NCBI RefSeq assembly: GCF_044704955.1
Contig: NC_092007.1
Coordinates: 5,022,001-5,086,000, forward strand
Length of the DNA stretch: 64,000 nucleotides
Source of the DNA: Pristiophorus japonicus
Taxonomy: Eukaryota
Direction: 5' to 3'
The notes below the pieces were generated by a model, which did not search any database, was not told where the DNA came from, and saw only the letters and a program-made list of their open reading frames with translations. Below are positions 128 through 43,980 of this stretch, piece after piece (positions within the stretch are counted from its first letter, which is position 1; every line of letters starts with the position of its first letter). The translations under genes and the position numbers were made by a program.

Positions 128-638
128 TTGTTTAAAAAAAACACAGTAAACAGAACTGAAAATATTAGCGATTAATCTGCGAAATATGCTCATTTTCACA
201 GAAATTGCAGGCATATGAACTTTAAAATCATTTAAATTTGCAGCATATTAACTGTAATCTTCATTCTTGAGACACCTTTCATATTTGTGAAAGTTTCAAA
301 CTTCCAGCGATTGCCGCCGGAACCTCGACACTTTGCGCTGATTGGAAAGATGCTGTCCATCTGCGAGCAATGTTTCTCTCCTGGTCTTGGCTCTGTAACA
401 GAAAGCAGTGCGTTAGAAAAGGGTGTGAGGCCACTTTCTGTCCCAGAATAACCCTCTTTCTCGCTGCTCAGATCATTTTCAATCTTTCCCTACTCAATGA
501 TGGAAACATTCTGAGCGTTGCAACATGCAGCACCTATGAAAGACGAACACGAAAATAACAGATGCCCCATCGAGCCTATCCCAAACAGTCAGGACGCAAC
601 AATGCCTCAGGATTGCAACTCTCCCTCTCGGCACCATG

Positions 639-3600
639 TCAGCTCTGACTGGTGGGAAATAACGTAATAAAAAAGTACTGGGTCAATTCAGCAATAAATA
701 CATCTGCAAATGTCTTCTCCTACCTCTATGACGAACAAAACGAGTTTCAATTGATAACAATGTCGATGAGGTACATCACCTAACAGAGCAACTAAGATTT
801 GCCCGCAATGATATTAGCCCCAGGAGCGGATTCTACCCGTTCCAGTCCAGCAATTCTTGCTCATATGCTGAAATTCTGACGACACGTTATTTTGAAATCT
901 CTCTTTATTACCCCACGAGTTGAAGTAATTATTCCCATACCCGTGTGAGTCTATTTCTTTCATCACCAAGACAATGATGGCAATCAGAATGAGAACGGCA
1001 GCAGCGGTTCTGATTGACATGGCGATTTTCCAAAATGATCCTGAAAATATTCAACAACAAAAAACACGCTCTTCATTATTGCTCTGATTAACCCAGGTTT
1101 CTCGATAGCATTTAACAACATGTATGGGACTATTAAGATAGAAATCAACTCACATTTATTTAGTGCTTTTCCAAACCTCGCAACCCACTTTACAGCCAAT
1201 GAAGTACTATGGAAGTTTATTCACTGTTGCACTGTAGGTAACGTGGCAGCTGTATTGCGCATAGCATGCTCCCACAAACAGCGATGAGATAAATAAGCAG
1301 ATAATCTCTTTCAGTATTACTGGTTGAGGGATAAATAATTGCCAAGGCATCGGAGAGCGCTGCGCCTGCTCGTCTTCAATCGATTCAGTATTACAGCATC
1401 CCTTAGAAAATGCAGCTATCCACATCGCATACTCCAATCTGCTCCTCCGTTATCCGATATCTTATTTCAGTCCATAAGTTGCGTTTAAAGTTATTCTGCG
1501 CCAATTGTCAGTATTTTGACACGTGATAGTTTGCTCAGAATATCAATAAAACTGACATTCGGCTGAAAAAACTGCGTGAAAATAAATTGAACTGAGCAAT
1601 TGTAAATTGAATGATGGACTGTGCCCCACTAATGTTACAGTGAGCGCAAATATGGTTTCATAGAGTGTGTCACTAATTCAGAAAGTTCTGTTTTATAAAC
1701 GATGACACATTCCTTCTAGTGTTTTATATTACACTTTCTATCTTCGTTAAAAAAGGCGACAATAATCAAATTCAGAAGACCAGAATATAAACTTGACGGG
1801 GATTATTCTCATCTGAATTTCGCGAGCAGCATGAACCAGAGCCAAACACTACTAAAATTAAGAATGGTATACGTCCTAAATTGCAAATAATCAGAGAAAA
1901 ATACAACATTACTGCATAGGAGGAGGACATTCGGCCCATCATGTTCCTGCCGGCCAATTTAGCATTATCCAGCCTAATTCCATTTTCAAGCTCATCGTCA
2001 TATCCAACTAAATGCTATGAGAGAGTGTGCCTCTAAATTCTTTCGGGCGGTGATTTGCAGAGCACGACCATCCTCTGGTGAAAGCATATCATCTCAAATC
2101 CCCTCTAATCCTTCTACAAATTACTTTAAATAAGTATGGTATTACGGACTCAGTGGAATTATTGCCTTCTCAGGGATACTCTGAAATAGCTGCAAGCCCT
2201 CCGGAGTGAAGCTGTGTGGCAAAGTTAAATCTGAGCATCGATCAAGTGATTGAGAGCCTGCAGCTCACTACCATTACAATGAAAGGAAACCAGACGTCAT
2301 AAAGTCTCCGATCAATTCAGAAGGTCTCGCTTGTTTAAAGATCATACGCTACCTTTACTGTTTAATGTTAACCCCTTCCTCTCTTCACAAGCACAGTGCG
2401 ACCATAACTTAATTCAGAAAATCAGTGATTAAATTTTACATTTTTCCAACAATTTTAAGATAGCAGACAGTCACTAACCAGACAATTACTCTACTGAAAT
2501 TAGCAATGGATTCAGTCCTCAATCATAGATCAGTAAGTTAATACAAGCTCAAATGGAACTGATATTTGCTGACACTAATTCTGTTCACTTAGTATCGGGC
2601 CAATGATGGAATAAACCAGCTATTTTAATCAAATTGCAGCAAATCTCAACACTCACCTGTTGAACAGATCTGATATTTGCCGACACTAACACCGTGTTCG
2701 TTCCATGCAACACAGGAGATATGGTGTCCTGTACCGGTTGGGTGGGTCAGTGTCAGAGAGCTCTGCACCAGGGAATTATTCATTGACCGGGTGGTGACTC
2801 CGAGACCTGGCATGTTTCTAGTGATGTTTCTTCCATTGACGCTCCAGGTGATGTTTGCCGGGGGCTTGGCTCTTACACTGCAGGTACAATGAAACCCACT
2901 CTCAAATCTGGTGCAGGTCGGGCCCCATACTATGGTGGGTTTAACTGAAAAAATAGACAGTTCCACTTAAGATGATTTTAATCATGCAGTTGCATTGTTT
3001 AAGTTAAACCAATTGGCGCTATTTGGAGAAGCACAGGAGTGAACACAAAGGCCGGCATTACCAATAAAAAAACTTGCATTTCAACTTGCATTCCAATCTC
3101 CAGTTCTGATGAAAGGTCCGCGGCCCGAATCGTTAACTCTGCCTTCTTTGCACAGATGCTGCCTGACCTGCTGAGTTTTCCAGCATTTTCAGATTTTATT
3201 CCAGATTCTAGCATCCGCAGTTTTTTGCTTTTTTTAATTTGCATTAATATAGCGCCGCTAACGTGGCAAAAATTCCCAATGAGCTTCAAAAGTTCACAGA
3301 AGACTACATCGGAAGTTTGGCACAGAAACGGTACAGTTGGCTCAACCACTCCATGTCTGAGTTAATGCTCCACTCGAGCCTCCTCCCGTCTTTCCTCATC
3401 TAAAGCTATCAGCATAACGCTCTATTCCCTTCTCCCTCATACGCTTTTTCAACATCACTTTACATGCATCTGTTCAATCAGCTTCAACCACTCGCTGTAA
3501 AGAAGTTCCTTCTGAATTCTCTCTGGGATATATCTTTTTGTCTACCCTATAAAAACCTTTCGTCATTTTAAAGATGTCAATTAGATCACTCCTCAGCCTT

Positions 3601-6600
3601 CTATTTTCAAGTGAAAAAAGACCCCAAAGAGCGTTAGCAAACAACATTTGATACGGATCATTCCTGTACCGTTACAAATGTAATTGGCTCACATCACACT
3701 GACATTGTACAGAAATCTGTGTGGATCTGTTGGCGGTGCTCAGGTTATTTTCAGCCACGCAATAATACTCGCCGTCATCTTCAGAACTAATGTTGTGAAA
3801 TGTGTGCTTCAGTTCACCGGTGGATGATCTGCTGATCTCAGTGACAACTCGGACCAATGTTAAATTGACGGGCTGGTCACCCAGAGCCCTGCAGTACAAT
3901 AATAATGAAGTGCCCTCCACTATTACGATAGAAGAATTGAAGCTTGGTTTCTCCAGTGCATCTGAAACACACGAGAGCATTGGTGTTATTGGAGAATATC
4001 GGAGCAGAAGAGTAAAGTCAATTTGGCAATTGAAGAATAATATTAAAGCCGATATGGTGGCTATATTGCCAAATCTAAATTTAAAAAGCCAGCCTATGAT
4101 TGTTGGCGCTGTACTGCTTAAGATTATTTCAAATTTAGACCAAATTTATCTCAACGTTTTATCCTCTTCACTTCAAACGTTTGTAGTGACTGCCTGGACG
4201 TGATTCTTTTCCACAGAAACATCAATCAAGCGGCCATTCCTCCAACAACAAGAACAGTGGCCTTTCTCATCACTTGAACAGAGCTGTTGAGGCGGATTGC
4301 AGGCTCCCGACCACCACCGCTGATAACTCGTCACATACACTTATGTTTCAGATGCTCTCTCGGTGCAACTATATCAGGAATTAGGAGCCTTTGGAATAAC
4401 ATTTGACATAAGTAGCATCTATGGAGCCTTCCAATGTTACTCCCTGGGTCTTTGTCAATGTGAAATAATACAACTCACAAGAAATGTTTGATAGTCAGTT
4501 CGACCCAATGGTTATAGGAATATATCTTACACTTCGAGTACGTTCCGCTATTCAATTAGATCATGGCTCATCCATATGGTAGCTCTGCCTACCCGCTTTT
4601 GCTTTATTCTTATTTTTAAAAACTATCCATCACATATGTTGTATATTTAATTATCTCGGCGAGCTATCACTCCACTGAGCATCAAGACAAGTTTGGATCC
4701 TGTTTATCAAAGGATGATGCAATGCAGGGTACAGCAGATACTTACTTTGAATGTGCAGTGTGAGAGTTTCTTGAACACTCCCCTCGACACCATCAACGAC
4801 AAGCTGACATCCCAGCTTTTTCCCATTGTGGTCTGGTGATGGGGTGAAGATGAATGTTGTTGAAATAGCCCATGATCCCTCCAACCTGTTGTCTCTGTAT
4901 TTGGAATTTTTAGTCTCTTGCAGCAAACGAACATTATCCTCGTCCTGAATCCACGTCAGTTCTGGATTGGCGGAGGGGCAGCTGGAGGTGACTGAGCAGG
5001 TTAAATATACGGGCTTTCCAGCAATCAATTCCCCAGGGACTGAAATCCATGACTTATGTGTAAGCAGTGAAAGGAATTCGTGTGACTGTGGATTTCAATA
5101 TAACACATGTGGAGGGAAGGGCCAGGCGGTTCAGTTCAATGTCTGAGATAATACCATGAGCAAAAATTTATATGTTTTCCACTTGATCTCTGCTATGGGA
5201 AGGAGCCGATTGTTAATTATTACTTACGGTCACAGAATCAATCGATTGATGCATGTGTTCATGAACTTAATGTCCTGCCACAATATGAATGAATTATTCA
5301 TGTGGGCTTGTTTCTGATCGGTCAGTCACCGCTCTGCAGCACACAATTATTTCAATTCAAATTAAGGTCAGAAAAAACATTCAAAACAGAGTCCGAGATT
5401 TGGTTCCTTGAGTATACCTGGGATATTCTTAGTCCAACGGCTCACTCTCACGTGGAACAGTTGATTTAGCCATTGCTTATTTTTATTCTTGCTTTTAATT
5501 CATTTTCTCTCATTTAGTCTCGCGATAGGAGTGCCACAACTAACCTTCAGGACGAGGGACACGCTTAACAAACCTGGTTTGTTACTGTTACCAACAGCGG
5601 GACAGTGCACAGCTATGAGAAGAAAGCAAGACCAGGTTGCGGGTTCAAGACCCATTTCAGAGACTTAAGCACAACCTGTAGCCTGACACTCCAGTGCAGT
5701 ACTGATGCATTGTCACAATGCCGGAGATTCCATTTTACGGATGAGATATTAACCTGTTCTCCTAATTTACCTCTCAAGTGTACATAACAGTTCGCACAGT
5801 ATTATTTTGAATGAGCCTTTGTCCTCGTTAACTTTGATTGATCGACGCGTTATCTGCAAGGCTGGTGGATGTTTTAAAAGACAAATACAGATGTCCTTCA
5901 GCCGTGGTGGGCCGAAGGGCCTCTTAATGTAATGTAAGATTAAATATTTCTATGATTGTATTTTATAACACACACCTGGATATTATTCAGTGTACCAGCC
6001 CTGCAGAGATGGCGTGTGACGTGGGCCAATGTCAACATGAAATCTTTCATTTTAGGCAAAAATTGAATGGCATTGGCGAGATGGAACATTAACTACAAAA
6101 CGAAAAATTCAAAATAACTTACTTAAAATAGAAAGATTGACAGGAGTTTTGGAACCGTATCCTTCTATCTGATCCTGGGAGTTCATGATCTTCAATATGA
6201 AGTAATATTCTCCTCCATCGCTCTCCCTGATGTCCTTTAACCGTAAGGAGCATTGCTTCTTTATAAAGTCGCCGGCTAACTCTGCCCTCCCTCGATAGTC
6301 ATGGTGCATATTGTCTGCATCTCTGGAATCATAGATAACCGAGACCCCTGGTGCATAAAGATGAGGACTCCCCTTTAACCACATACCCTGTGGATTGCGA
6401 CCATTCGTGGGATAGTCAAATCTACACGGGATCTTTGCACATGAACCCTTCACCGTCGATAAACTCCATGGTGTCGTCACAGACCATCGTGAACTACGTA
6501 CAACTGGTGAAGAAATAGAAATTAAACATCCATTGAAATCCCCAATATGAATACTTTCCCTCATCGTCAGGTTAAATAATATTACTTTAACCTTTGACGC

Positions 6601-6921
6601 CCACGAAAACATATTAATGAGTACCTCAATGAAAAGGCGTTAAATTTTAATTAAAACTCCTCCAATTCCATTAACTACTCCATTGAAAGCCGGCAAATCA
6701 GAAAGTAAATATTAAATCAATATGATAAATACATAAAGAAGTTCTGAATAAAACATATTAAAAGTGCAAATCACAAATTACTAGTTAAGCATGTACTATC
6801 TCTATAAAGTAAGAACGTTTTAATTGAACACAAAATGGAAATCGTTTCGAACATCAATTAGTAAACTGAACATTTTACCTTTACAGAATATCAGAATGGA
6901 GATAAATGTTAAACTCTTCAT
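639..6921 (-). CDS. Siglec-like Ig-superfamily receptor, copy A (7 coding exons; exon-3 acceptor mutated, so possibly a variant or pseudogene)
   Basis: Exons: 6879-6921 (MKSLTFISILIFCK, G|GTAAAA), 6123-6503 (V-set), 4746-5057 (C2), 3704-3961 (C2/I), 2657-2944 (C2), 941-1040 (TM), probable 639-648 (GQS*). Ig exons are all phase 1-1 with lengths divisible by 3. Boundaries are GT/AG except the exon-3 acceptor (AC at 5058-5059). Total 1392 nt, 463 aa. Confidence 0.85.
941..1040 (-). CDS. Copy A exon 6, transmembrane segment with Arg
   Basis: attttcag|GA gives in-frame GSFWKIAMSIRTAAAVLILIAIIVLVMKEIDSHG; GG|GTATGG donor. Confidence 0.82.
1150..1380 (-). mobile_element. DeuSINE/SacSINE-like 3' fragment (also in units B and C)
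   Basis: Matches the SINE bodies at 49.3-54.3 kb (cagccaatgaagtact, ctcccacaaacagc, gagggataaata). Confidence 0.7.
2657..2944 (-). CDS. Copy A exon 5, membrane-proximal Ig domain
   Basis: PTIVWGPTCTRFESGFHCTCSVRAKPPANITW...ISCVAWNEHG resembles the membrane-proximal domain of CD33-related Siglecs and MAG; ttttttcag acceptor and GTGAGT donor. Confidence 0.9.
3083..3245 (+). mobile_element. Penelope-like-element-derived short insertion with degenerate hammerhead ribozyme motif (second copy ~16638-16800)
   Basis: AGTT-CTGATGA-[GGTC cgc GGCC]-GAAT-CGTT-AACT followed by cacagatgctgcctgacctgctgag; flanked by AA(C/T)TTGCATT direct repeats; absent from copy C. Confidence 0.6.
3704..3961 (-). CDS. 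Copy A exon 4, Ig C2/I-set domain
   Basis: EGTSLLLYCRALG...ISSEDDGEYYCVAEN; tttcag acceptor and GTCAGT donor. Confidence 0.9.
4746..5057 (-). CDS. Copy A exon 3, C2-set Ig domain
   Basis: LTCSVTSSCPSANPELTW...FTPSPDHNGKKLGCQL, typical of Siglec domain 2; GTAAGT donor; acceptor is AC instead of AG. Confidence 0.85.
5620..5810 (+). mobile_element. tRNA-derived SINE 5' fragment (DeuSINE-like)
   Basis: B-box-like GGTTCAAGACCC followed by gacttaagcac...ctgacactccagtgcagtactga. Confidence 0.6.
6123..6503 (-). CDS. Copy A exon 2, Siglec-type V-set Ig domain
   Basis: GSCAKIPCRFDYP, W on the C strand, YRGRAELAGD, KQCSLRLKDIRESDGGEYYF; cttcaccag acceptor and GTAAGT donor. Confidence 0.92.
6879..6921 (-). 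CDS. Copy A exon 1, signal peptide
   Basis: ATG at 6921, hydrophobic MKSLTFISILIFCK, phase-1 GT donor; conserved in all three copies. Confidence 0.8.
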
Positions 6922-7299
6922 GGGTGGAACGGTTCACGATGTCAAAATGACAGAAATTGACTCAATCTCAGATATCACTAATCTAGTTCCAGATTCCGTT
7001 CGCCGGTAATATCCTGGAGTTCACAGATGACCGAATCAGAGTATCAGCAGGTCAGTTGAAAGCTATCCAACAAACATTCAACACCGTGGTTGCTCAAACA
7101 GCTATCACCACTCCTCGGATGTTGTTCATCAAAACTGCTGCAATTCTGGATCATTTCGAACGTGACCATGTCCTGTAGTAATTGGCCCGCAGTTACAGGA
7201 TATGCTGAGACCCCGCCTGTTGCTGATTAGCTCTGAGCAGAAATATACCAATTTCCCCTTCATCAGCACAGCTACAGGGCACGGGTGGCATTCTAGTTT

Positions 7300-14197: not shown

Positions 14198-17100
14198 TCA
14201 GCTCTGACTGGTGAGAAATAACGTAATAAAAAAGTACTGGGTCAATTCAGCAATAAATACATCTGCAAATGTCTTCTCCTACCTCTATGACGAACAAAAC
14301 GAGTTTCAATTGATAACAATGTCGATGAGGTACATCACCTAACAGAGCAACTAAGATTTGCTCGCAATGATATTAGCCCCAGGAGCGGATTCTACCCGTT
14401 CCAGTCCAGCAATTCTTGCTCATATGCTGAAATTCTGACGACACGTTATTTTGAAATCTCTCTTTATTACCCCACGAGTTGCAGTAATTATTCCCATACC
14501 CGTGTGAGTCTATTTCTTTCATCACCAAGACAATGATGGCAATCAGAATGAGAACGGCAGCAGCGGTTCTGATTGACATGGCGATTTTCCAAAATGATCC
14601 TGAAAATATTCAACAACAAAAAACACGCTCTTCATTATTGCTCTGATTAACCCAGGTTTCTCGATAGCATTTAACAACATGTATGGGACTATTAAGATAG
14701 AAATCAACTCACATTTATTTAGTGCTTTTCCCAACCTCGCAACCCACTTTACAGCCAATGAAGTACGATGGAAGTTTATTCACTGTTGCACTGTAGGTAA
14801 CGTGGCAGCTGTATTGCGCATAGCATGCTCCCACAAACAGCGATGAGATAAATAAGCAGATAATCTCTTTCAGTATTACTGGTTGAGGGATAAATAATTG
14901 CCAAGGCATCGGAGAAGGATCCGCCTGCTCGTCTTCAATCGATTCAGTATTATAGCATCCCTTAGAAAATGCAGCTATACATATCGCATACTCGAATCTG
15001 CTCCTCCGTTATCCGATATCTTAATTCAGTCCATAAGTTGCGTTTAAAGTTATTCTGCGCCAATTGTCAGTATTTTGACACGTGATAGTTTGCTCAGAAT
15101 ATCAATAAAACTGACATTCGGCTGAAAAAACTGCGTGAAAATAAATTGAACTGAGCATTTGTAAATTGAATGATGGACTGTGTCCCACTAATGTTACAGT
15201 GAGCGCAAATATGGTTTCATAGAGTGTGTCACTAATTCAGAAAATTCTGTTTTATAAACGATGACACATTCCTTCTAGTGTTTTATATTACACTTTCTAT
15301 CTTCGTTAAAAAAGGCGACAATAATCAAATTCAGAAGACCAAAATATAAACTTGACGGGGATTATTCTCATCTGAATTTCGCGAGCAGCATGAACCAGAG
15401 CCAAACACTACTAAAATTAAGAATGGTATACGTCCTAAATTGCAAATAATCAGAGAAAAATACAACATTACTGCATAGGAGGAGGACATTCGGCCCATCA
15501 TGTTCCTGCCGGCCAATTTAGCATTATCCAGCCTAATTCCATTTTCAAGCTCATCGTCATATCCAACTAAATGCTATGGGAGAGTGTGCCTCTAAATTCT
15601 TTCGGGCGGTGATTTGCAGAGCACGACCATCCTCTGGTGAAAGCATATCATCTCAAATCCCCTCTAATCCTTCTACAAATTACTTTAAATAAGTATGGCA
15701 TTACGGACTCAGTGGAATTATTGCCTTCTCAGGGATACTCTGAAATAGCTGCAAGCCCTCCGGAGTGAAGCTGTGTGGCAAAGTTAAATCTGAGCATCGA
15801 TCAAGTGATTGAGAGCCTGCAGCTCACTACCATTACAATGAAAGGAAACCAGACGTCATAAAGTCTCCGATTAATTCAGAAGGACTCGCTTGTTTAACGA
15901 TCATACGCTACCTTTACTGTTTAATGTTAACCCCTTCCTCTCTTCACAAGCACAGTGCGACCATAACTTAATTCAGAAAATCAGTGATTACATTTTACAT
16001 TTTTCCAACAATTTTAAGATAGCAGACAGTCACTAACCAGACAATTACTCTACTGAAATTAGCAATGGATTCAGTCCTCAATCATAGATCAGTAAGTTAA
16101 TACAAGCTCAAATGGAACTGATATTTGCTGACACTAATTCTGTTCACTTAGTATCGGGCCAATGATGGAATAAACCAGCTACTTTAATCAAGCAAATCTC
16201 AACACTCACCTGTTGAACAGATCTGATATTTGCCGACTCTAACACCGTGTTCGTTCCATGCAACACAGGAGATATGGTGTCCTGTAGCGGTTGGGTGGGT
16301 CAGTGTCAGAGAGCTCTGCACCAGGGAATTATTCATTGACCGGGCGTTGACTCCGAGACCTGGCATGTTTCCAGTGATGTTTCTTCCATTGACGCTCCAG
16401 GTGATGTTTGCCGGGGGCTTGGCTCTTACACTGCAGGTACAATGAAACCCACTCTCAAATCTGGTGCAGGTCGGGCCCCATACTATGGTGGGTTTAACTG
16501 AAAAAATAGACATGTTCGACTTAAGATGATTTTAATCATGCAGTTGCATTGTTTAAGTTAAACCAATTGGCGCTATTTGGAGAAGCACAGGAGTGAACAC
16601 AAAGCCCGGCATTACCAATAAAAATAACTTGCATTTCAACTTGCATTCCAATCTCCAGTTCTGATGAAAGGTCCGCGGCCCGAATCGTTAACTCTGCCTC
16701 CTTTGCACAGATGCTGCCTGACCTGCTGAGTTTTGCAGCAATTTCAGATTTTATTCCAGATTCTAGCATCCGCAGTTTATTGCTTTTTTTAATTTGCATT
16801 AATATAGCGCCGCTAACGTGGCAAAAATTCCCAATGAGCTTCAAAAGTTCACAGAAGACTACATCGGAAGGTTGGCACAGAAACGGTACAGTTGGCTCAA
16901 CCACTCAATGTCTGAGTTAATGCTCCACTCGAGCCTCCTCCCGTCTTTCCTCATCTAAAGCTATCAGCATAACGCTCTATTCCCTTCTCCCTCATACGCT
17001 TTTTCAACATCACTTTACATGCATCTGTTCAATCAGCTTCAACCACTCGCTGTAAAGAAGTTCCTTCTGAATTCTCTCTGGGATATATCTTTTTGTCTAC

Positions 17101-20100
17101 CCTATAAAAACCTTTCGTCATTTTAAAGATGTCAATTAGATCACTCCTCAGCCTTCTATTTTCAAGTGAAAAAAGACCCCAAAGAGCGTTAGCAAACAAC
17201 ATTTGATACGGATCATTCCTGTACCGTTACAAATTTAATTGGCTCACATCACACTTACATTGCACAGAAATCTGTGTGGATCTGTTGGCGGTGCTCAGGT
17301 TATTTTCAGCCACGCAATAATACTCGCCGTCATCTTCAGAACTAATGTTGTGAAATGTGTGCTTCAGTTCACCGGTGGATGATCTGCTGATCTCAGTGAC
17401 AACTCGGACCAATGTTAAATTGACGGGCTGGTCACCCAGAGCCCTGCAGTACAATAATAATGAAGTGCCCTCCACTATTACGATAGAAGAATTGAAGCTT
17501 GGTTTTTCCAGTACATCTGAAACACACGAGAGCATTGGTGTTATTGGAGAATATCGGAGCAGAAGAGTAAAGACAATTTGGCAATTGAAGAATAATATTA
17601 AAGCCGATATGGTGGCTATATTGCCAAATCTAAATTTAAAAAGCCAGCCTATGATTGTTGGCGCTATACTGCTTAAGATTATTTCAAATTTAGACCAAAT
17701 TTATCTCAACGTTTTATCCTCTTCACTTCAAACGTTTGTTGTGACTGCCTGGACGTGATTCTTTTCCACAGAAACATCAATCAAGCGGCCATTCCTCCAA
17801 CAACAAGAACAGTGGCCTTTCCCATCACTTGAACAGAGCTGTTGAGGCGCATTGCAGGCTCCCGACCACCACCGCTGATAACTCGTCACATACACTTATG
17901 TTTCAGATGCTCTCTCGGTGCAACTATATCAGGAATTAGGAGCCTTTGGAATAACATTTGACATAAGTAGCATCTATGGAGCCTTCCAATGTTACTCCCT
18001 GGGTCTTTGTCAATGTGAAATAATACAACTCACAAGAAATGTTTGATAGTCAGTTCGACCCAATGGTTATAGGAATATATCTTACACTTCGAGTACGTTC
18101 CGCTATTCAATTAGATCATGGCTCATCCATATGGTAGCTCTGCCTACCCGCCTGTGCTTTATCCTTATTTTTAAAAACTATCCATCACATATGTTGTATA
18201 TTTAATTATCTAGGCGAGCTATCACTCCACTGAGCATCAAGACAAGTTTGGATCCTGTTTATCAAAGGATGATGCAATGCAGGGTACAGCAGATACTTAC
18301 TTTGAATGTGCAGTGTGAGAGTTTCTTGAACACTCCCCACGACACCATCAACGACAAGCTGACATCCCAGCTTTTTCCCATTGTGGTCTGGTGATGGGGT
18401 GAAGATGAATGTTGTTGAAACAGCCCATGATCCCTCCAACCTGTTGTCTATGTATTTGGAATTTTTAGTCTCTTGCAGCAAACGAACATTATCCTCGTCC
18501 TGAATCCACGTCAGTTCTGGATTGGCGGAGGGGCAGCTGGAGGTGACTGAGCAGGTTAAATGTACGGGCTTTCCAGCAATCAATTCCCCAGGGACTGAAA
18601 TCCATGACTTATCTGTAAGCAGTGAAAGGAATTCTTGTGACTGTGGATTTCAATATAACACATGTGGAGGGAAGGGTATGTCTGAGATAATACCATGAGC
18701 AAAAATGTATATGTTTTCCACTTGATCTCTGCTGTGGGAAGGAGCCGATTGTTAATTATTACTTACGGTCACAGAATCAATCGATTGATACATGTGTTCA
18801 TGAACTTAATGTCCTGCCACAATATGAATGACTTATTCATGTGGGCTTGTTTCTGATCGGTCAGTCACCGCTCTGCAGCACACAATTATTTCAATTCAAA
18901 TTGAGGTCAGAAAAAACATTCAAAACAGAGTCCCAGATTTGGTTCCTTGAGTGTACCTGGGATATTCTTAGTCCAACGGCTCACTCTCACGTGGAACAGT
19001 TGATTTAGCCATTGCTTATTTTTATTCTTGCTTTTAATTCATTTTCTCTCATTTAGTCTCGCGATAGGAGTGCCACAACTAACCTTCAGGACGAGGGACA
19101 CGCTTAACTAACCTGGTTTGTTACTGTTACCAACAGCGGGACAGTGCACAGCTATGAGAAGAAAGCAAGACCAGGTTGCGGGTTCAAGACCCATTTCAGA
19201 GACTTAAGCACAACCTGTAGCCTGACACTCCAGTGCAGTACTGATGCATTGTCACAATGCCGGAGATTCCATTTTACGGATGAGATATGAACCTGTTCTC
19301 CTAATTTACCTCTCAAGTGTACATAACAGTTCGCGCAGTATTATTTTGAATGAGCTTTTGTCCTCGTTAACTTTGATTGATCGAAGCGTTATCTGCAAGG
19401 CTGTTGGATGTTTTAAAAGACAAATACAGATGTCCTTCAGCCGTGGTGGGCCGAAGGGCCTCTTAATGTAATGTAAGATTAAATATTTCTATGATTGTAA
19501 TTTATAACACACACCTGGATATTATGCAGTGTACCAGCCCTGCAGAGATGGCGTTTGACGTGGGCCAATGTCAACATGAAATCTTTCATTTTAGGCAAAA
19601 ATTGAATGGCATTGGCGAGATGCAACATTAACTACAAAAGGAAAAATTCAAAATAACTTACTTAAAATAGAAAGATTGACAGGAGTTTTGGAACCGTATC
19701 CTTCTATCTGATCCTGGGAGTTCATGATCTTCAATATGAAGTAATATTCTCCTCCATCGCTCTCCCTGATGTCCTTTAACCGTAAGGAGCATTGCTTCTT
19801 TATAAAGTCGCCGGCTAACTCTGCCCTCCCTCGATAGTCATGGTGCATATTGTCTGCATCTCTGGAATCATAGATAACCGAGACCCCTGGTGCATAAAGA
19901 TGAGGACTCCACTTTAAGCACATACCCTGTGGATTGCGACCATTCGTGGGATAGTCAAATCTACACGGGATCTTTGCACATGAACCCTTCACCGCCGATA
20001 AACTCCATGGTGTCGTCACAGACCATCGTGAACTACGTACAACTGGTGAAGAAATAGAAATTAAACATCCATTGAAATCCCCAATATGAATACTTTCCCT

Positions 20101-27736: not shown

Positions 27737-30700
27737 TCAGCTCTGACTGGTGAGAAATAACGTAATAAAAAAGTACTGGGTCAATTCAGCAATAAATACA
27801 TGTGCAAATGTCTTCTCCTACCTCTATGACGAACAAAACGAGTTTCAATTGATAACAATGTCGATGAGGTACATCACCTAACAGAGCAACTAAGATTTGC
27901 CCGCAATGATATTAGCCCCAGGAGCGGATTCTACCCGTTCCAGTCCAGCAATTTTTGCTCATATGCTGAAATTCTGACGACACGTTATTTTGAAATCTCT
28001 CTTTATTACCCCACGAGTTGAAGTAATTATTCCCATACCCGTGTGAGTCTATTTCTTTCATCACCAAGACAATGATGGCAATCAGAATGAGAACGGCAGC
28101 AGCGGTTCTGATTGACATGGCGATTTTCCAAAATGATCCTGAAAATATTCAACAACAAAAAACACGCTCTTCATTATTGCTCTGATTAACCCAGGTTTCT
28201 CGATAGCATTTAACAACATGTATGGGACTATTAAGATAGAAATCAACTCACATTTATTTAGTGCTTTTCCCAACCTCGCATCCCATTTTACAGCCAATGA
28301 AGTACGATGGAAGTTTATTCACTGTTGCACTGTAGGTAACGTGGCAGCTGTATTGCGCATAGCATGCTCCCACAAACAGCGATGAGATAAATAAGCAGAT
28401 AATCTCTTTCAGTATTACTGGTTGAGGGATAAATAATTGCCAAGGCATCGGAGAAGGATCCGCCTGCTCGTCTTCAATCGATTCAGTATTACAGCATCCC
28501 TTAGAAAATGCAGCTATCCACATCGCATACTCCAATCTGCTCCTCCGTTATCCGATATCTTAATTCAGTCCATAAGTTGCGTTTAAAGTTATTCTGCGCC
28601 AATTGTAAGTATTTTGACACGTGATAGTTTGCTCAGAATATCAATAAAACTGACATTCGGCTGAAAAAACTGCGTGAAAATAAATTGAACTGAGCATTTG
28701 TAAATTGAATGATGGACTGTGCCCCACTAATGTTACAGTGAGCGCAAATATGGTTTCATAGAGTGTGTCACTAATTCAGAAAGTTCTGTTTTATAAACGA
28801 TGACACATTCCTTCTAGTGTTTTATATTACACTTTCTATCTTCGTTAAAAAAGGCGACAATAATCTAATTCAGAAGACCAGAATATAAACTTGACGGGGG
28901 TTAATCTCATCTGAAATTCGCGAGCAGCATGAACCAGAGCCAAACACTACTAAAATTAAGAATGGTATACGACCCTAAATTGCAAATAATCAGAGAAAAA
29001 TAAAACATTACAGCATAGGAGGAGGACAGTCGGCCCATCATGTTCCTGTCGGTCAATTAAGCATTATCCAGCTAATTCCATTGTCAAGCTCATCGTCATA
29101 TCCAACTAAATGCTATGGGAGAGTGTGCCTCTAAAGTCTTTCGGGCGGTGATTTGCAGACCACGACCATCCTTTGGTGAAAGCATATCATCTCAAATCCC
29201 CTCTAATCCTTCTACAAATTACTTTAAATAAGTATGGTATTACGGACTCAGTGGAATTATTGCCGTCTCAGGGATACTCTGAAATAACTGCAAGCCTTGC
29301 GTAGTTAAGCTGTATGGCCAAGTTAAATCTGAGCATCTATCAAGTGATTGAGAGACTGCAGCCAGCTACCATTAAAATGAAAGGAAACTAGACGTCATAA
29401 AGTCTCCAATTAATTCAGAAGGTCTCGCTTGTTTAACGATCATACGCTACCTTTACTGTTTAATGTTAACCCCTGCCTCTCTTCACAAGCACAGTGCGAC
29501 CATAACTTAATTCAGAAAATCAGTGATTAAATTTTACATTTTTCCAACAAATTTAAGATAGCAGCCAGTCACGAACCAGACAATTACTCTACTGAAATTA
29601 GCAATGGATTCAGTCCTCAATCATAGATCAGTAAGTTAATACAAGCTCAAAGGAACTGATATGTGCTGACACTAGCTCTGTTCACTTAGTATCGATCCAA
29701 CGATGGAATAAACCAGCTACTTTCATCAAATTGCAGCAAATCTCAACACTCACCTGCTGAAGAGATCTGATATTTGCCGACACTAACACCGTGTTCGTTC
29801 CCTGCAACGCAGGAGATGTGGTGTCCTGTACCAGTTGGGTGGGTCAGTGTCAGAGAGCTCTGCACCAGGGAATTATTGACCGCCCTGGCGGTGACTCCGA
29901 GACCTGGCATGTTTCCAGTGGTGTTTCTCCCATTGACGCTCCAAGTGATGTTTGCAGGGGGGGGTGGCTCTGACACTGCACGTACGATGAAACCCACTCT
30001 CAAATCTGGTGAAGATCGGGCCGCATACTATGGTGGGCTTAACTGAAAAAATAGAGGGATCCACTTAAGTTCCTTTTAATCGTGCAGTTGCTTGTTTAAC
30101 TAGAACCAATTGGTGCTATTTTCGATCCACATGAGTTAATGAAAGGTCCGTCATTAAAAACAACAGTAACTTGATGTTATATAGTGCCGCAAACGTAATT
30201 AAAACTTTCAAGGATTTTCAGAGGTTACATAAGATTACCTCGGATATACAGCACAGAAACAAGCCATTCGGTGCAACCACTACATGCCCGTGTTTATGCT
30301 CCACTGGAGCCGCTTCCCCATCTTTCTCCATCTAAATCTATCAACATATATCCTTTTCCCTCATATGCTTGTACAGCTTCCCCTTAAATGCATTGATATT
30401 TTCACATCAACCACATCCTGTTGTGGCGAGTTACGATATCCCATCACACTTTGGATCAAGAAGTTTCTTTTGAATGACCCATTGGAGATTGTGGTAACTA
30501 TTTTATACTGATGGCCTCTAGTCCACAAGTGCAAACACTCTTTTTGTTTCTAATTTATCAAAACCTTTCGTCACTAATTAGGTCACACTTCAGCCTTTTT
30601 TTCAAGCAAAAAGAGATCCCGAAAACTGTTACCAAAGAACATTTGAGACGGATCATTAATATGCTTTTATACATTTAATAGGTTGGCATAGCACTTACAT

Positions 30701-33110
30701 TGTATACAAATCTGCTTGGATCTGTTTGCGGTGACCAGGTTATTTTCAGCCATACAATAATACTCTCCGTCATCCTCAGAACTAATGCTGTGAAATATCG
30801 TCTTCAGTTCACCAGTGGAAGATCTGCTGATCTCAGTGCCACCTCGGACCAGTGTTAAACTGACCAGCGGGTCACCCAGGGCCCTGCAGTACATTAATAA
30901 TGAACTGCCCTCCACTGTTACTATAGAGGAATTGAAGCTTGGTTTCCCCAGTGCATCTGAAACACAAGAGAGAATTGCCTTTATTGGGGAATTTCGGAGC
31001 CCCAGTGCAAAGGCAACTTGGCGATCGAAGAATAATATGAAGCAGATATGCTGGCTATATTGCCAAATATAAATTGAAAAGCCAGATCGTGATCGTCGAT
31101 GCGAGGACGCTTAAGATTATTTCAAATGTAAACACGTTTTAAATCAACGTCTTTACCTCTTCTCTTCAAAAAGTTGTAGTGACTACCTGAAATTAATCCT
31201 ATTCCACCGATACATCAATCAAGGGTCCATTCCTCCCAGAGCAAGAAGAATAGGCTTTCCCATTATATAAGCAAAGCTGTTGAGGACAATTGTAGGATGC
31301 CGACCACAGCCCCAGCTAACTCGTAATATTTCATTCACTCTCTGGCTGCAACGGTATCAGTAATTAGGAGCCTTTTTGACATAAATATCAAGGATTTATT
31401 CATTGTTGGCCTATTTCTGATCGTTCAGTCACCGCTCTGCAGCACACAAGTGTTTCAACTCAATTTGCAGTCAGAAAAAACATAGAAAACGCAGTCGCAG
31501 TTTGGGTTTCTTGCTTGTACCTGGGATAGAATCTAGGATATTCTTAGTCCAATGGCTCACTCTCACGTGGCACAGTTGATTTACTCTTTGCTGCGTTTAA
31601 CTTTTGCTTATAATTCATTTTTTCTCATTTAGTCTCGTGATAGGAATGCCACAAATAATCTTCAGGGAGAGGGGCAAGCTTAGCTAACCTGGTTTGTTAC
31701 CATTAAAAGCAGCGCGACAGTGCACAGCTGTCAGAAGAAAGCAAGACCAGATTATGGGTTCAAGCCCCATTTCAGATTCTTAAGCACAACCTGTCGCCTA
31801 ACTCTCCACTGCAATAGTGATGCAATGTCACAATGCCGGAGATTCCATTTTACAGATGAGACATTAAACTGATGTCCTGTCTTTCCTCTCAACTTCCCGT
31901 GGCATTATTTTGAAAGACCCTTTGTCCTTGTTAAATTTGATTGATCGACGCACTACCTGCAAGGCTGGTGGATGTTTTAAAAGACAATTACAGATGTCCT
32001 TGAAGCAGACTAATTTGCAGGTTTATGGAGACAATGCGACAGAGTGCGTCTCAATTGGCTAGCTCCTTCAGGCGTGGTGGGCCGAATGGCCCCTTAATAT
32101 ACTGTAAGATTATATGGTTCTATGATTGTATTGTATAACACACACCTGGATATTATTCAATGTACCAGCACTGCAGAGATGGCCTGTGACGTAGGCCAAT
32201 GGTAACACAAAATATTTCCATTTTAGGCTAAGATTGAGTGGCATTTGCGAGGGTGAACATGAACTACAAAAAGGACCAATTAAAATTAACTTACATAAAA
32301 TAGAAAGGTTAATAGGAGCTTCGTAACCGCATCATTGTCTCTTATCCTGGGCGTTCCTGAGCTTCAATATAAAATAATATTCTCCTTCATCGCTCTCGCT
32401 GATGTCCTTTAACCGTAAGGAGCATTGCTTCTTCACAAAGTCGCCAGTCAACTCTGCTCGCCCTTGATAATCACGGTGTATATTGTCTGTACCTCTTGAA
32501 TCATAGATAACCTAGATAACCGAGACCCCTGGATTATCAGGAACAGGACCCCCTTTTATCCACATCCCCTGTGGACTGTGGCCATAGGTGGAATAGTTAA
32601 ATGTTCACGGAATCTCTGCACATGAACCGTTCACCGCTCACACTCTCCACATTATCTTCACAGACCATCCTGAAGTATGTACAACTGTTGAAGAAATAGA
32701 ATTTAAATACGCATTGAAATCCCCAATAATATAGCAATTAATACTTACTCTGACCGACAGGTTAAATACCTTAACTTTTAAACACCCACTAAAATATATT
32801 CATTAGTACCTCAAAGAAAAGGCGTGACATTTTAATTAAAACTCTTCAAATTCCATTAACTATTCCATTGAAAGCCGATAAATCAGAGAGTAAATATTAA
32901 ATCAATTTTATAAAAAAAACGTTGAAAATTGTGAATAAAATAAACATTAAAGGTGCAATTCACAAATTATTAACTAAACATGTACAATCTCTACAAATAA
33001 TAAATTTGTAAATTTGACACGAAATGGAAATCGCTCCTGACATCAATGATTAAACTGAATAGTTTATCTTCGCCAAATACCAGAATGCAGATAACGGTAC
33101 TGCTCTTCAT
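27737..33110 (-). pseudogene. Siglec-like pseudogene, copy C (chimeric, diverged 5' part)
   Basis: Exon 1 (33068-33110) has its donor changed GT>AT. V exon (32295-32684) has in-frame stops at 32638-40, 32605-07, 32512-14 and 32332-34. Exon 3 is deleted. Exon 4 (30699-30956) is intact. Exon 5 (29754-30042) has a +1 frameshift in the G run 29957-29964 and has lost cysteines. TM exon (28039-28138) is intact. Confidence 0.9.
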
Positions 33111-35980: not shown

Positions 35981-38754
35981 TATTCTTTACACCCAATGCC
36001 TTGTAGAACACCAGGAATTGTTGAAAAGTCATTAGGAGCTCAGGGGCTGTCGGTGGGGTGAAGATATAAATGATAATGTTGGGTTAATAGTTCATCAGAA
36101 TGGAAAACAAATGATAGTGCGGCTCTCTGATTGTGACTATAAGATGGTCGTATAGGATGCCTATGGCCTAAATTGAATATGCAATCCGTTGCAATGCCAA
36201 TTTCTCTGAACTGTCTCTGGGTTCATGAATACAGGAAAGGGAGCAGTACCTTCCCGGGAGTGGTATATACACTCAGGAGTGTTTATCTCACTCCCTCAAT
36301 GGTATTAAACAAAAGGATTAGAATCAGTGAGTGTGAATTGTGACGGGCAAGTTTCAGGTCCCACGGGACCAATAGTCATTCCTGTTTTAATTGTTCTTCT
36401 TAAAATAAGTGCTAACACTTACTGTGGAGCACATGGAACGGTTGCTGTATTTGTGGGGTGTGAGGATATGGCAGTGTATCAGCAGACTAATGATTACATT
36501 CATACACAATTCTGGTCTCCATGTTATAAGAAGGACATAGATGCACTGGAGAAGGTACAAATCAGATCTCCTAAAAGTATACCAGAAATGTGAGGTTATG
36601 AACAGCAGGCAAGACTATATGGTCTGGCGAGCTTTTCGCTAGCAATGACAAGGCGGAGAGCTGACCTAATACAGGCCTTTAAAATGATAAAGGGGTTTTG
36701 TAGGATAGATGAAGCGGAGATGTTTCCACTTATATGGAGATCAAAACTAGAGTACATCAAAATGAGATTGTCAGTCGGAAACACAAGAAAGAATTCAGGA
36801 GAAACTTCTTTACCCAGAGAGTGGTGAGAATGTGGAATGTGCTACCACAGGGAGGGATTGAGGCGGCTAGTATAGATGTGTTTAAGAGGCATCAACATGA
36901 TGGAGAAAGGAAAATGCTGATAGGTTAAAATAAACTTGGGAGGAGAAAGCTCGTGTGTAGCATAAACGCTGCCTTGGATAATTTGGGCTCAATGGTATGT
37001 TTCTGTGCAACATATTAATGTAATTAACCCTGAGTTAATAACATCAAACTTGCTAACTCTCTGAATATATTCAAGGCCGAGATAGATAGATTTTTGTGGT
37101 CAGGGGAATCAAGGGATATGATGACCGGTTGGTAAATTGGAGTTGAGGTAGATGACCACCCATGATCTTATTGAATGTTGGAGCAGGCTCAAGGGGCCAT
37201 AGGGCCTACTCCTGCTCCTATTTCTTAAGTTCCTTTGTTCTTATGTTTTTATTTAGTAATGTGTGTTCAGTTTGAGCTATAAGTTTGTTTTGTATTTATT
37301 TTTTATTGTGTTTCTTTCTTGACTGGTGTATGGAATGTGTGTTTAAACCAGGCCCCAGATTGGTTTGACTCTCTAGATTAGGGAGCTGTGATCAAATTCA
37401 GGACCCAACTTATCTAAAAATAGCAGACGCCACACATCTACTGAGTCCCCGCGTGGAGGCTGCTGCAATGAACTTTGCTCAAGAATCCTCTACACAAGGT
37501 CCAGTTACCTTTGAGTCTGACAGTACAAGTGATGTGTGATCAGCTTCAGGCACAGTTTGTGCTCAGTGTCTCCTTCAGTGTGGCTGCCCCGAGGTGGGTT
37601 TATTTTCACCGTGTGCCAGTGTAGCAGCAGAGCCAGGTGTGAAGTACCGGCTCCTATGTAGCATCTGTATTGCTGTGGTTACTGCAGCTCACAACACCCT
37701 GCTATCTCTGACGTACTTGTGGGTTGATCATTCTGTACCAGTGAGACAAAATAAATTATCTGTGGTCAGGCAACATCCCTTTATACCATGTGCTGCATCT
37801 TGAAAGGGCATGTTCTGTTTCCAGCTCTGTGTTTAACCCTTAATGCAAAGCGAGATCAGATTTGACAGTGTGCTTGTGTGATTTATAGGAAACACGGGAT
37901 GGGAGATACAAGGAGGATGTCGTTGCCCCATATCAGGGCAGTAGGTGCATGGGAACTCCAGACTCCCCCAGTTCCCCTCCAAGTCACACGCCAACCTGAA
38001 TTGAACATATATCACCCTCCCTTAACAGCGATGGGTCAAAATCCTAAAATCGTGGAACTCGCTCCCGAGCAGCAATGTGGGAGCTCCTTCACCTCACCCA
38101 CTTTAGCGGTTCAAGAAGGCAGCTCACCACCACATTCTCAAGAGACGATTAGCGATGGGCAAAAATGAGACCCTATGAATCCCTCAACCCAGGAACGAAT
38201 AAAAAATATGCCGCTGTATTTTTCCACGGACCCCTCCCACCTACAATATTCCAACTATGCTCATATTCTGAAAGTCCTGTTTATTAGTAAACTAAGGTCC
38301 CTCCAGTCCCTCAAAAAACTGCACATTTTTAATTTGCAAGCCACAAAAAGAGTTTTTGCGGGATTTTAGACAGGAATGGGAGCCCTGACTGATCGTTAAG
38401 TTCCTGGCACAGGTTGGCTTGGATGGGGACATGCTAAGTGCTGAATTGGCCCTTGGATTTTAAGAGAATCTACAGCGGCATTTTGTATCGCTGTGTGTTG
38501 CCATTTCCCTGACTGCTGGTGCAGCCTGAGCTGATGTCGATTGCACGTGCTCAGTGCGATAGTGACAGGGTTCTCAACGCAACAGCGCCACACAGTGGCA
38601 GTCCGACGGCATTACACGTGTCATTTGTCACTATCATCAGACAGCTCTGGACCCAACTGAGGCATAGAAACATAGAAAATAGGTGCAGGAGTAGGCCATT
38701 CGGCCCTTCTAGCCTGCACCGCCATTCAATGTGTTCATGGCTGAACATGCAACT

Positions 38755-41733: not shown

Positions 41734-42680
41734 TTAGTTTAACTCCTCCCCAACAGCACTTGCAAACACTCCCCCTAGGACATTGGTTCCGGTCCTGTCC
41801 AGGTGCAGACCGTCCGGTTTGTACTGGTCCCACCTCCCTCAGAACCGGTCCCAATGCCCCAGGAATTTGAATCCCTCCCTGCTGCACCACTGCTCAAGCC
41901 ACGTATTCATCTGCGCTATCCTGCGATTCCTACTCTGACTATCACGTGGCACTGGTAGCAATCCCGAGATTACTACTTTTGAGGTCCTACTTTTTAATTT
42001 AGCTCCTAGCTCTTAAATTCATTTCGAAGGATCTCATCCCTTTTTTTACCTATGTCATTGGTACCAATGTGCACCACGACAACTGGCTGATCTCCCTCCC
42101 TTTTTAGAATGTCCTGCACCCACTCCGAGACATCCTTGACCCTTGCACCAGGGAGGCAACATACCATCCTCGAGTCTCGGTTGCGGCCGCAGAAACGCCT
42201 ATCTATTCCCTTTACAATTGAATCCCCAATCACTACCGCTCTCCCACTCTTTTTTCTGCCTTCCTGTGCAACAGAGCCAGCCACGGTGCCATGAACTTGG
42301 CTGCTGCTGCCCTCCCCTGATGAGTCATCCCCCTCAACAGTACCCAAAGCAGTGTATCTGTTTTGCAGGGGGATGACCACAGGGGACCCCTGCACTACCT
42401 TCCTTGCACTGCTCTTCCTGTTGGTCTTCCATTCCCTATCTGGCTGTGGACCCGTTTCCTGCGGTACGACCAACTCGCTACACGTGATACTCACGTCATT
42501 CTCAGCATCGTGGATGCTCCAGAGTGAATCCACCCTCAGCTCCAATTCCGCAACGCGGACCGTCAGGAGCTGGAGGTGGATACACTTCCTGCACACATAG
42601 TCGACAGGGACACTGGAGTCATCCCTGAGTTCCCACATGGTACAGGAGGAGCATAACACCCGACCGAGCTCTCCTGCCAT
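41734..42680 (-). pseudogene. CR1 ORF1 (CxxC..CxxC, coiled coil, SGNH/GDSL esterase), frameshifted at ~42010
   Basis: CSSC..CRKC, VIGDSIV, HIGTND, and after the frameshift KPDGLHL; one further internal TGA. Confidence 0.88.
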
Positions 42681-42861
42681 GACTTAACCCTTAGATACAC
42701 ATAAATTGGCAACAACAATGTTAAAAGTTACTCACTGATCTAGAAGAGAAAAAAGAAAAACTACTCACGAATCCAGCCAATCACTTACCCTCTAGGCTGT
42801 GACGTCACCTTTCTGTTTCTTTCTACTTCTTTTTGCCTTCTCCCTGTAGCTGCACAAGTAC

Positions 42862-43150
42862 GCCTCTCCACACACCTCCTCGACGCTGATCCCGACTGTC
42901 ACCGACGCTGGGCCCCGGACTCCCTGCTGTGCCTTTTATAAGCCTCTCCACGCAACTCCTCGACGCTGCTCCCGACTGCCGCCGACACTGGGCCCCGGAC
43001 TCCCTGCTGTGCCTTTTATAGGCCTCTCCACGCAACTCCTCGACGCTGCTCCCGACTGCCGCCGACGCTGGGCCCCGGACTCCCTGCTGTGCCTTTTATA
43101 GGCCTCTCCACGCACCTCCTCGATGCTGCTCCTGACTGCCGCCGACGCTG
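42862..43150. repeat. 80-bp GC-rich tandem repeat x3.6 forming the CR1 5' end
   Basis: gcctctccac... starts at 42862, 42942, 43022 and 43102. Confidence 0.95.
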
Positions 43151-43249
43151 CTTTCCCCTATCATGCCAAGATGAACTCCTCGTTCAATTCAACTTGCCCA
43201 GCATAGACTGTGGAAAAGTGCTCTAGCGTGTGCAGAATGAAACAGAATG

Positions 43250-43980
43250 GTCCAGAAATTCCGGCCTCCCCGGTCGATACGGAGTTTTTACGATCCCGTG
43301 AAGGCATCGCAAAAGCCACTTTTTGGCGTACAATGCGCATGCAATGAAAACCGGTTTTCCTGATCTGTCAGAATGGTGATTGACAGATCCAACGGATCGC
43401 CACAACCAGGACATTCCCATGGGCAAGATTGTCATATTTACCCATATCTGGCCCAGCGGATGTCCTGAAAACACTTGCGTCTGATAAAAACAAGTGCACA
43501 GCCTACGTTTGCAGGCATGAGTTTTAAAATACACGCAAACATGAAAAAGTAAAATTGTTAAAACCCTTCCCCACGACGGTAAGTTTATTTTGAACCATAA
43601 TTTTAAAACCTTTTTATACAATTCCGAAAAATATATTTTTTTATAATACATAAATAACTTTAATTTAAATGAACAAAATATGTGGTGTATTTTTTCAATT
43701 TTTAATATTGTTTTGTGTGATTGAGGGGGGATTCTCATTCATAATAAAGGGAACTCCAACTTACGGAGTTCAGATTATTATGAATGAGAACATACTTTAC
43801 CTTGATTGGCTGCCCAGAGCCATGTGACTGCAGCATGCGCTGTGACGCATAGTCAGTGGAGGCCGAGGGCCGGGAACTCCCGGGGGTGCAGCAGCTTCAG
43901 GTAATTGAACATATTTTAAGTTTTTCCCTCGATCTCCCGCGGGAATTAGCCGATAGTGATTTATGTTCAATGTGTTCTCC
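43250..43980. mobile_element. Putative non-autonomous DNA transposon (MITE-like) fragment with internal palindromes
   Basis: Insertion relative to the paralogous region; starts ggtccagaaattcc; several internal inverted repeats; no ORF. Confidence 0.4.

What the first reader, a model, noticed from the sequence alone, without database searches (positions are those of the whole stretch)
6185..6225. Essential Siglec arginine replaced by Ile in all three copies
The F-strand motif reads DGGEYYFILKI in A and B and DEGEYYFILKL in C, where Siglecs have Y-x-F-R (the Arg salt-bridges sialic acid). The codon is ATA, one change from AGA. The strongly diverged copy C shares it, so the loss predates the old duplication and is a family trait rather than recent decay. 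The Lys two residues later could partly substitute (speculative).
Basis: partly seen in the sequence, partly recalled or inferred. Interest (0 to 1): 0.7.

Follow-up and report, generated by a model that had tools for sequence, protein, structure and literature searches.

The report
Shark Siglec-like receptors lacking key arginine
Eight related copies of an immune-receptor gene, likely from a shark, have isoleucine where Siglec receptors use an arginine to grip sialic acid, so they likely no longer bind that sugar the usual way; such losses are already known from ape and human Siglecs and recur in this shark-and-ray family.

Summary
Observation confirmed. Ile (ATA, 6196-6198) aligns with sialoadhesin Arg97; copies B and C carry the same codon.

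The three copies likely record one mutation. Eight genes of one branch share it, while six cluster paralogs keep Arg, so it is a sub-branch trait, not family-wide. C is a pseudogene, A has lost a splice acceptor and B its core Trp.

It is still not just recent decay: an Ile-bearing, two-ITIM gene upstream (U1) has an open 527-residue model, and dN/dS within the Ile branch is 0.53 (0.39-0.74). A and B are chimeras of the U1 ectodomain and an Arg-bearing anchor like C's, likely activating partners.

Lys+2 is unlikely to be compensatory: 11 of 17 Arg-bearing relatives have it. In other sharks and rays 16 of 27 family domains lack the Arg (at least 5 changes). Precedent: Siglec-XII and ape Siglec-5/14. 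This scan already noted the pairing here and Arg loss in other genomes.

The parts
6196..6198 (-). Copy A: Ile codon ATA at the Siglec essential-Arg position (V residue 98)
6190..6192 (-). Copy A: Lys two residues later; also present in Arg-bearing relatives
6879..6921 (-). Copy A signal-peptide exon (ATG, GT donor)
6123..6503 (-). Copy A V-set exon, open, Siglec-type cysteines C17, C22, C80
4746..5057 (-). Copy A domain-2 exon; acceptor is AC instead of AG (shared with upstream copies U2 and U3)
3704..3961 (-). Copy A domain-3 exon; donor GTCAGT (GT kept, weaker than GTAAGT of the paralogs)
2657..2944 (-). Copy A domain-4 exon; holds the switch from U1-like to C-like sequence (inferred crossover zone, about 2750-2930)
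941..1040 (-). Copy A membrane-anchor exon with Arg near its outer end; no ITIM follows
222..392 (-). Decayed homologue of the ITIM exon behind copy A (about 71% to the U1 exon, stops in the motif frame); ends approximate
19735..19737 (-). Copy B Ile codon ATA
19662..20042 (-). Copy B V exon: open, but Trp37 to Cys and Gly40 to Trp
14500..14599 (-). Copy B Arg-bearing membrane-anchor exon
32368..32370 (-). Copy C Ile codon ATA
32295..32684 (-). Copy C V exon: pseudogene (3 TGA, 1 TAG, 9-base insertion)
28039..28138 (-). Copy C Arg-bearing membrane-anchor exon; its lineage is the likely donor of the anchor in A and B

Best explanation
One branch of a Siglec-like receptor cluster, likely from a shark, carries isoleucine at the sialic-acid arginine site in all eight of its copies, likely from a single AGA-to-ATA change, so these receptors likely cannot bind sialic acid in the canonical pocket and were likely kept as a paired-receptor set for another, unknown ligand. 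Shown: the residue and codon; the eight-copy clade; an open Ile-bearing inhibitory gene model (U1, G000:C33 about 4.965-4.975 Mb, motifs VVYAAV and TEYAAL); five chimeric copies (U2-U4, A, B) whose ectodomain is U1-like and whose Arg-bearing anchor is C-like; lesions in several copies. Inferred: a single origin by point mutation; loss of canonical binding (by analogy with mammalian Siglecs); an unequal crossover in the domain-4 exon followed by tandem amplification of a 13.5-kb unit; activating signalling through an ITAM adaptor; a non-sialic ligand, most plausibly microbial. The two window copies A and B may themselves be damaged members.
For: Position: ungapped alignment to sialoadhesin Arg97; confident model whose best match is sialoadhesin. 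Single origin: A, B, U1, C and D form a starred clade (98/94) built without the trait column; U2-U4 carry the same codon; the nearest row outside the clade carries Arg. Retention after the change: U1 splices at GT donors to an open 527-residue protein; U1 vs D over 393 codons gives dS 0.274, dN 0.144, ratio 0.53, bootstrap 0.39-0.74. Chimera: A's ectodomain region is 97.6% identical to U1 and 82.0% to C; its tail region is 98.3% identical to C, with only 176 of 2170 bases alignable to U1 (71%). Recurrence: 16 of 27 family V domains from other sharks and rays lack Arg; at least 5 Arg/non-Arg changes on the tree. Literature: Arg mutation abolishes sialic acid binding in human Siglec-XII and ape Siglec-5/14 (PMC6288428, passages); activating partners have a positive membrane residue and a short tail (PMC13358205, section 8).
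Against: No binding or expression data. Selection on the V exon alone is weak (dN/dS 0.74 vs D, 0.80 vs C), and the U1 branch alone is inconclusive (0.70, 0.42-1.39). The six recent copies differ by 18 amino-acid-changing and 5 silent changes over domains 1-3, close to the roughly 3.2:1 site ratio expected without selection. Of the eight Ile copies two are pseudogenes (C, D), three have a dead domain-2 acceptor (A, U2, U3) and one lost the core Trp (B); only U1 and U4 show no such lesion, and U4 has the weaker donor. Siglec-6 binds glycolipids without its canonical Arg (PMC10122656, passages), so loss of all sialoside binding is not certain.
Confidence: 0.55

Rival explanations
1. Birth-and-death decay: the Arg loss was tolerated because the branch was redundant with the Arg-bearing paralog; the copies now have no ligand and are drifting to pseudogenes, the 13.5-kb amplification being neutral.
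For: C and D are pseudogenes; A, U2 and U3 share a dead acceptor; U3 lacks 12 bases in domain 4; B lost Trp37. Recent copies show 18:5 changing to silent differences. U1-branch dN/dS interval includes 1.
Against: U1 has an open 527-residue model with two tyrosine motifs after about 17-18% DNA divergence from C and D; U1 vs D ratio 0.39-0.74 excludes 1; a separate Arg-less clade of 13 rows spans several shark genera and a ray.
Confidence: 0.25
2. Sialic acid is still bound, through Lys100 on the same strand face or through a second site as in Siglec-6.
For: Trp2 aligns with sialoadhesin Trp2. Arg68 is invariant in the 53-row alignment and lies 30 residues before the site, the spacing of Siglec-6 Arg92/Arg122 and Siglec-7 Arg94/Arg124 (PMC10122656).
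Against: Lys+2 accompanies Arg in 11 of 17 Arg-bearing family rows, so it did not arise with the loss. PMC10122656 says that the second Arg is conserved in other Siglecs, yet only Siglec-6 used it; Siglec-1, -5, -9 and -10 lost binding when the canonical Arg was mutated.
Confidence: 0.13
3. The Ile is shared with the older Ile-rich clade of the same cluster (genes at 4.258 and 4.376 Mb and their shark and ray relatives), by descent or gene conversion, i.e. one ancient loss.
For: Both groups have Ile at the site and lie in one cluster; the backbone of the family tree is unresolved.
Against: Holding the 18 rows together is rejected (p-AU 0.030); the codons differ (ATA vs ATC at 4.258 Mb) and the flanks differ (YYFILK vs YHFIVS), while the window flanks match the Arg paralogs. 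A very short conversion tract is not excluded by a whole-domain test.
Confidence: 0.07

Closest known systems
Human Siglec-XII and great-ape Siglec-5/Siglec-14 (natural essential-Arg mutants; PMC6288428, passages)
   Same: A Siglec-type V domain with the F-strand Arg naturally replaced; in apes the loss is shared by an inhibitory and an activating partner with near-identical ectodomains.
   Different: Shark cluster with no resolved orthology to these genes; the residue is Ile; the activating-type copies are five tandem chimeras; Arg-less domains are the majority (16 of 27) of sampled relatives rather than rare exceptions.
Sialoadhesin/Siglec-1 and MAG/Siglec-4 V domains (PDB 1qfo, 1oda, 5lf5)
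   Same: Best sequence and fold matches (E 4e-14; TMq 0.85-0.87); Trp2, the C17/C22/C80 pattern and no F-strand Cys.
   Different: Arg97 replaced by Ile; longer F-G hairpin; four Ig domains; ITIM-type or Arg-anchor ends.
Paired receptors Siglec-5/14, Siglec-11/16, PILR alpha/beta (PMC13358205, section 8)
   Same: Linked genes with near-identical ectodomains, one with ITIMs and others with a positive membrane residue and no ITIM.
   Different: The adaptor is unknown. The Arg lies at the outer end of the anchor, a placement that I recall from FcR-gamma-coupled receptors such as LILRA (recalled, not tested).
Annotated shark and ray 'MAG-like / Siglec-13-, -14-like / sialoadhesin-like' gene models (P0004-P0008, P0028, P0036, P0049, P0153-P0166)
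   Same: Same family: 43 rows form one clade (99/98); both ITIM tails (P0005, P0006, P0008) and Arg anchors (P0036, P0049) occur.
   Different: Automatic names only; nearest relative P0161 (Heptranchias, 61% identity in V) keeps Arg.

Membership tests
Siglec | N-terminal V-set domain followed by further Ig domains and one membrane anchor | tested here: met
   Pfam V-set and Ig_CD22; exon models; fold match
Siglec | Siglec cysteine pattern: B- and E-strand Cys, no F-strand Cys, extra Cys for the link to domain 2 (pattern recalled; interdomain bond also in PMC10122656) | tested here: met
   C17, C22 and C80 align with sialoadhesin cysteines and are conserved; domain 2 has three Cys. The bonds themselves were not examined.
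Siglec | Essential F-strand Arg (Y-x-F-R) | tested here: not met
   Ile98 opposite Arg97; ATA in all eight copies. Hence Siglec-like, not filed as a functional Siglec.
Siglec | Aromatic residues on the A and G strands that flank the sialic acid (recalled) | tested here: inconclusive
   Trp2 aligned. Tyr111 may correspond to the G-strand Trp by strand register, but the HMMER alignment does not place it there.
Siglec | Binds sialic acid | not testable with these tools
   Needs glycan or cell binding assays
Named Siglec lineage (Siglec-1, MAG, CD22, CD33-related) | Orthology by tree | tested here: inconclusive
   The 43 shark and ray rows form their own clade (99/98); its sister is unresolved and the outgroup was not one side of a branch.
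Paired inhibitory/activating receptors | Linked genes with near-identical ectodomains | tested here: met
   A vs U1 97.6% over 3847 aligned bases
Paired inhibitory/activating receptors | One member with ITIMs; others with a positive membrane residue and no ITIM | tested here: met
   U1 tail VVYAAV and TEYAAL; Arg anchors in U2-U4, A, B with a decayed motif exon. Sequence level only.
Paired inhibitory/activating receptors | Adaptor association and opposite signalling | not testable with these tools
   Needs co-immunoprecipitation and reporter assays

The most novel reading that the evidence does not exclude
Sharks and rays have a Siglec-derived paired-receptor family that has repeatedly abandoned sialic acid (at least 5 changes; most sampled members lack the Arg) and uses the Siglec V domain as a fast-changing sensor of non-glycan, probably microbial ligands. 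This array would be a newly made activating arm, created in one step when an unequal crossover grafted the Arg-less ectodomain of an inhibitory gene onto the Arg anchor of its neighbour.
Probability: 0.3. Interest if true: 0.65.

Novelty: new member of a known kind. Interest (0 to 1): 0.35.

Why it matters
Loss of the Siglec arginine is known from primates and is read as a move in the arms race with sialic-acid-mimicking microbes (PMC13358205, passages). This cluster shows the same change in a cartilaginous fish, repeated several times, and offers a natural comparison in one genome: an Arg-bearing and an Ile-bearing ITIM gene of the same build (528 and 527 residues), plus activating-type copies with a mapped crossover. 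That makes it testable what an Arg-less Siglec fold binds. The single codon itself is an ordinary event, and the two copies in the window are likely among the damaged ones.

Tried and rejected
The search for homologous proteins with the V exon against longer proteins found nothing; the HMMER library search and a profile search did. The look-up of sequencing runs: no RNA holder was listed; this is no evidence on expression, and no reads were laid. Complex prediction of the copy A anchor with two copies of the one zeta/FcR-gamma-family exon found in the genome (L111) gave no answer (score 0.15); it is not used for or against binding. Searches used wrong frames or exon ends, and the U1/R tails were one base short; corrected. 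Two papers were not held (PMC3015071, PMC516556). Rejected: mis-alignment (no gap around the site); 'three independent copies' (one clade); Lys compensation (ancestral); a single origin with the older Ile clade (p-AU 0.030). C33 4.65-4.82 Mb was not fetched; one search listed no V match there.

Full report
1. Observation. On the minus strand the V-set exon of copy A spans 6123-6503 and reads DGGEYYFILKI. The Ile codon is ATA (6196-6198), and copies B (19735-19737) and C (32368-32370) have the same codon. The best solved relatives are sialoadhesin and MAG (E 4e-14 to 2e-13). The alignment is ungapped over the E and F strands and puts Ile98 opposite sialoadhesin Arg97. An AlphaFold2 model from a 53-row alignment has pLDDT 95.0 with the F strand at 93-102, and its best Foldseek matches are sialoadhesin structures (TMq 0.85).

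2. Setting. The window is G000:C33:5022001-5086000. All named close homologues are from sharks and rays, so the source is likely a shark. A genome search gave 57 V-like matches, 30 fetched as loci. I fetched 800 kb around the window (4.15-4.65, 4.82-5.02 and 5.09-5.19 Mb). A 13.5-kb unit occurs six times: U1 (4.974 Mb), U2, U3, U4, A and B, followed by C. The gene plan is signal, V, three further Ig domains and anchor.

3. One mutation, not three. In a tree of 54 V domains built without the trait column, A, B, U1, C and a pseudogene D (4.917 Mb) form a starred clade (98/94), all Ile; U2-U4 were left out of the tree as near-identical and carry ATA. Six cluster paralogs keep Arg: 4.467 Mb, which splices to an open 528-residue protein with two tyrosine motifs, and five broken ones. 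The codon is AGA where it was printed (4.467 and 4.901 Mb). A is 82-83% identical in DNA to C and D and 77% to the Arg gene over the ectodomain region, which brackets the change between those two splits. The nearest relative from another species, P0161 (61% identity), keeps Arg. Outside the cluster 11 of 12 fetched Siglec-like loci keep Arg.

4. State of the copies. C is a pseudogene: 4 stops in V, AT instead of GT after the signal exon, no domain-2 exon, and a frameshift in domain 4. D has a stop and a 2-base deletion in V. A, U2 and U3 have AC instead of AG at the domain-2 acceptor; A, U3 and U4 have a GTCAGT donor after domain 3; U3 lacks 12 bases in domain 4; B has Cys for Trp37, which is invariant in the 53-row alignment. 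U1 has an open 527-residue model with VVYAAV and TEYAAL in its tail. U4 shows only the weaker donor and a Pro27Leu change. A could still make protein by skipping domain 2 or by an in-frame cryptic acceptor 18 bases downstream (inference from the sequence, untested).

5. Selection. U1 and D both carry Ile, so their divergence follows the change. Over 393 codons dS is 0.274 and dN 0.144 (ratio 0.53, bootstrap 0.39-0.74), so the branch was under purifying selection for part of that time. Against this, V alone gives 0.74 (vs D) and 0.80 (vs C), the U1 branch alone 0.70 (0.42-1.39), and the six recent copies differ by 18 changing and 5 silent substitutions over domains 1-3, about the neutral ratio. 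These are simple counting estimates on few sites.

6. Chimeric, activating-type copies. A's ectodomain region (3100-6950) is 97.6% identical to U1 and 82.0% to C. Its tail region (1-2170) is 98.3% identical to C and barely alignable to U1. Diagnostic sites are mostly C-type below about 2790 and mostly U1-type above about 2820, inside the domain-4 exon. The simplest reading is one unequal crossover between U1 and a C-lineage neighbour, then amplification (inferred). The C-type anchor has an Arg near its outer end and is followed by a decayed motif exon; read-through gives a 502-residue protein without an ITIM pattern. Arg anchors also end gene models from Cetorhinus and Mustelus (P0036, P0049). 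A positive anchor residue with a short tail marks activating partners (PMC13358205, section 8 read whole).

7. Recurrence. Of 27 family V domains from other sharks and rays, 11 have Arg and 16 do not (Ile 7, Thr 5, Ser 2, Lys 1, Ala 1). With this genome's rows the family has 17 Arg and 26 non-Arg rows. The whole tree needs at least 5 Arg/non-Arg changes; the count cannot tell loss from regain, though all 11 rows outside the family have Arg. A separate Arg-less clade of 13 rows (98/94) spans several shark genera and a ray; joining it with the window's clade is rejected (p-AU 0.030). Ile, Thr, Lys and Ser are each one base from AGA, which fits removal of Arg better than selection for Ile (inference). 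Samples are cluster representatives from two searches, not a census; P0160 lacks this part of V, and P0159, P0165 and P0167 gave no V match, so they were not counted.

8. The Lys idea. Lys+2 stands beside Arg in 11 of the 17 Arg-bearing family rows, so it is likely ancestral and not compensatory. Residual binding is not excluded: Siglec-6 binds glycolipids without its canonical Arg, and the second Arg discussed there has a likely counterpart here (Arg68). The same paper notes that this Arg is conserved in other Siglecs that do not bind this way (PMC10122656, passages).

9. Known and new. Natural loss of the essential Arg is documented for human Siglec-XII and ape Siglec-5/14 (PMC6288428, passages), and point mutation of this Arg is listed among the ways Siglecs evolve fast (PMC13358205, passages). 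A fish Siglec paper had no hit for 'shark' or 'cartilaginous' (PMC7226832, passages). Seven searches (listings and abstract starts only) showed no paper on this shark family. The library lacks most subscription journals, two relevant papers were not held, I recall but could not check a report of dogfish CD33-related sequences, and no supplements were read. Earlier unchecked notes of this scan describe the same pairing upstream in this genome and Arg loss in other genomes. I had reached these readings before that look-up; one note (e1-9587913) supported modelling read-through of the anchor exon.

10. Verdict. The feature is real and correctly placed. It is one likely point mutation in a sub-branch, seen here in copies that are partly damaged, within a family where the loss recurs. 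It works like the Arg-mutant primate Siglecs and fails the defining Arg test for a functional Siglec. New member of a known kind; interest 0.35.

Noticed in passing
window 62869-63999 (-), continuing to G000:C33:5086074: Open single-exon rhodopsin-family GPCR, best matches chemerin-like receptor 1, C3a receptor and formyl-peptide receptors; relatives at C33 5.105, 4.364 and 4.343 Mb, the last two in pieces. Formyl-peptide receptor genes lie beside the mammalian CD33-related Siglec cluster (recalled), so this may be old synteny.
   Followed up: partly
G000:C33 4.328, 4.339, 4.408, 4.450, 4.932 and 5.124 Mb: Six more Arg-bearing anchor exons; at 4.408, 4.450 and 4.339 Mb the frame stops within a few codons after the anchor, suggesting that this exon normally ends the protein.
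   Followed up: partly
G000:C33:4967535-4967583 (U1) and 4460207-4460255: The first cytoplasmic exon is cut to 49 bases by a GTGAGT donor that removes the first tyrosine motif present in other sharks' gene models; the frame to the last exon is kept.
   Followed up: yes
P0042 (Heterodontus) and P0158 (Scyliorhinus canicula): These gene models lack domain 2 and also have Asp in place of the V-domain Cys that would link to it, a possible coordinated loss.
   Followed up: no
G000:C33 cluster, 4.2-5.06 Mb: 5 of 6 Arg-bearing V exons are broken, against 7 of 16 Arg-less ones; six of the open Arg-less exons are recent duplicates, so this is not a test.
   Followed up: partly
window 38600-46400 and 56500-59400: Broken LINE-type retrotransposon copies (RVT_1 and endonuclease matches at 39859-41893 and 45076-45699), related to each other at 82-94%.
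   Followed up: partly
window 42862-43150, 44843-45070, 49790-54195: Tandem repeats with periods of 80, 70, 33 and 51 bases.
   Followed up: no
L111 (G000:C11:77265267-77265353): One exon of a CD3-zeta/FcR-gamma-family adaptor (PF11628).
   Followed up: partly
G000:C33:5111190-5116965 (+): Three long adjacent ORFs that look like an LTR-type element by eye; not tested.
   Followed up: no
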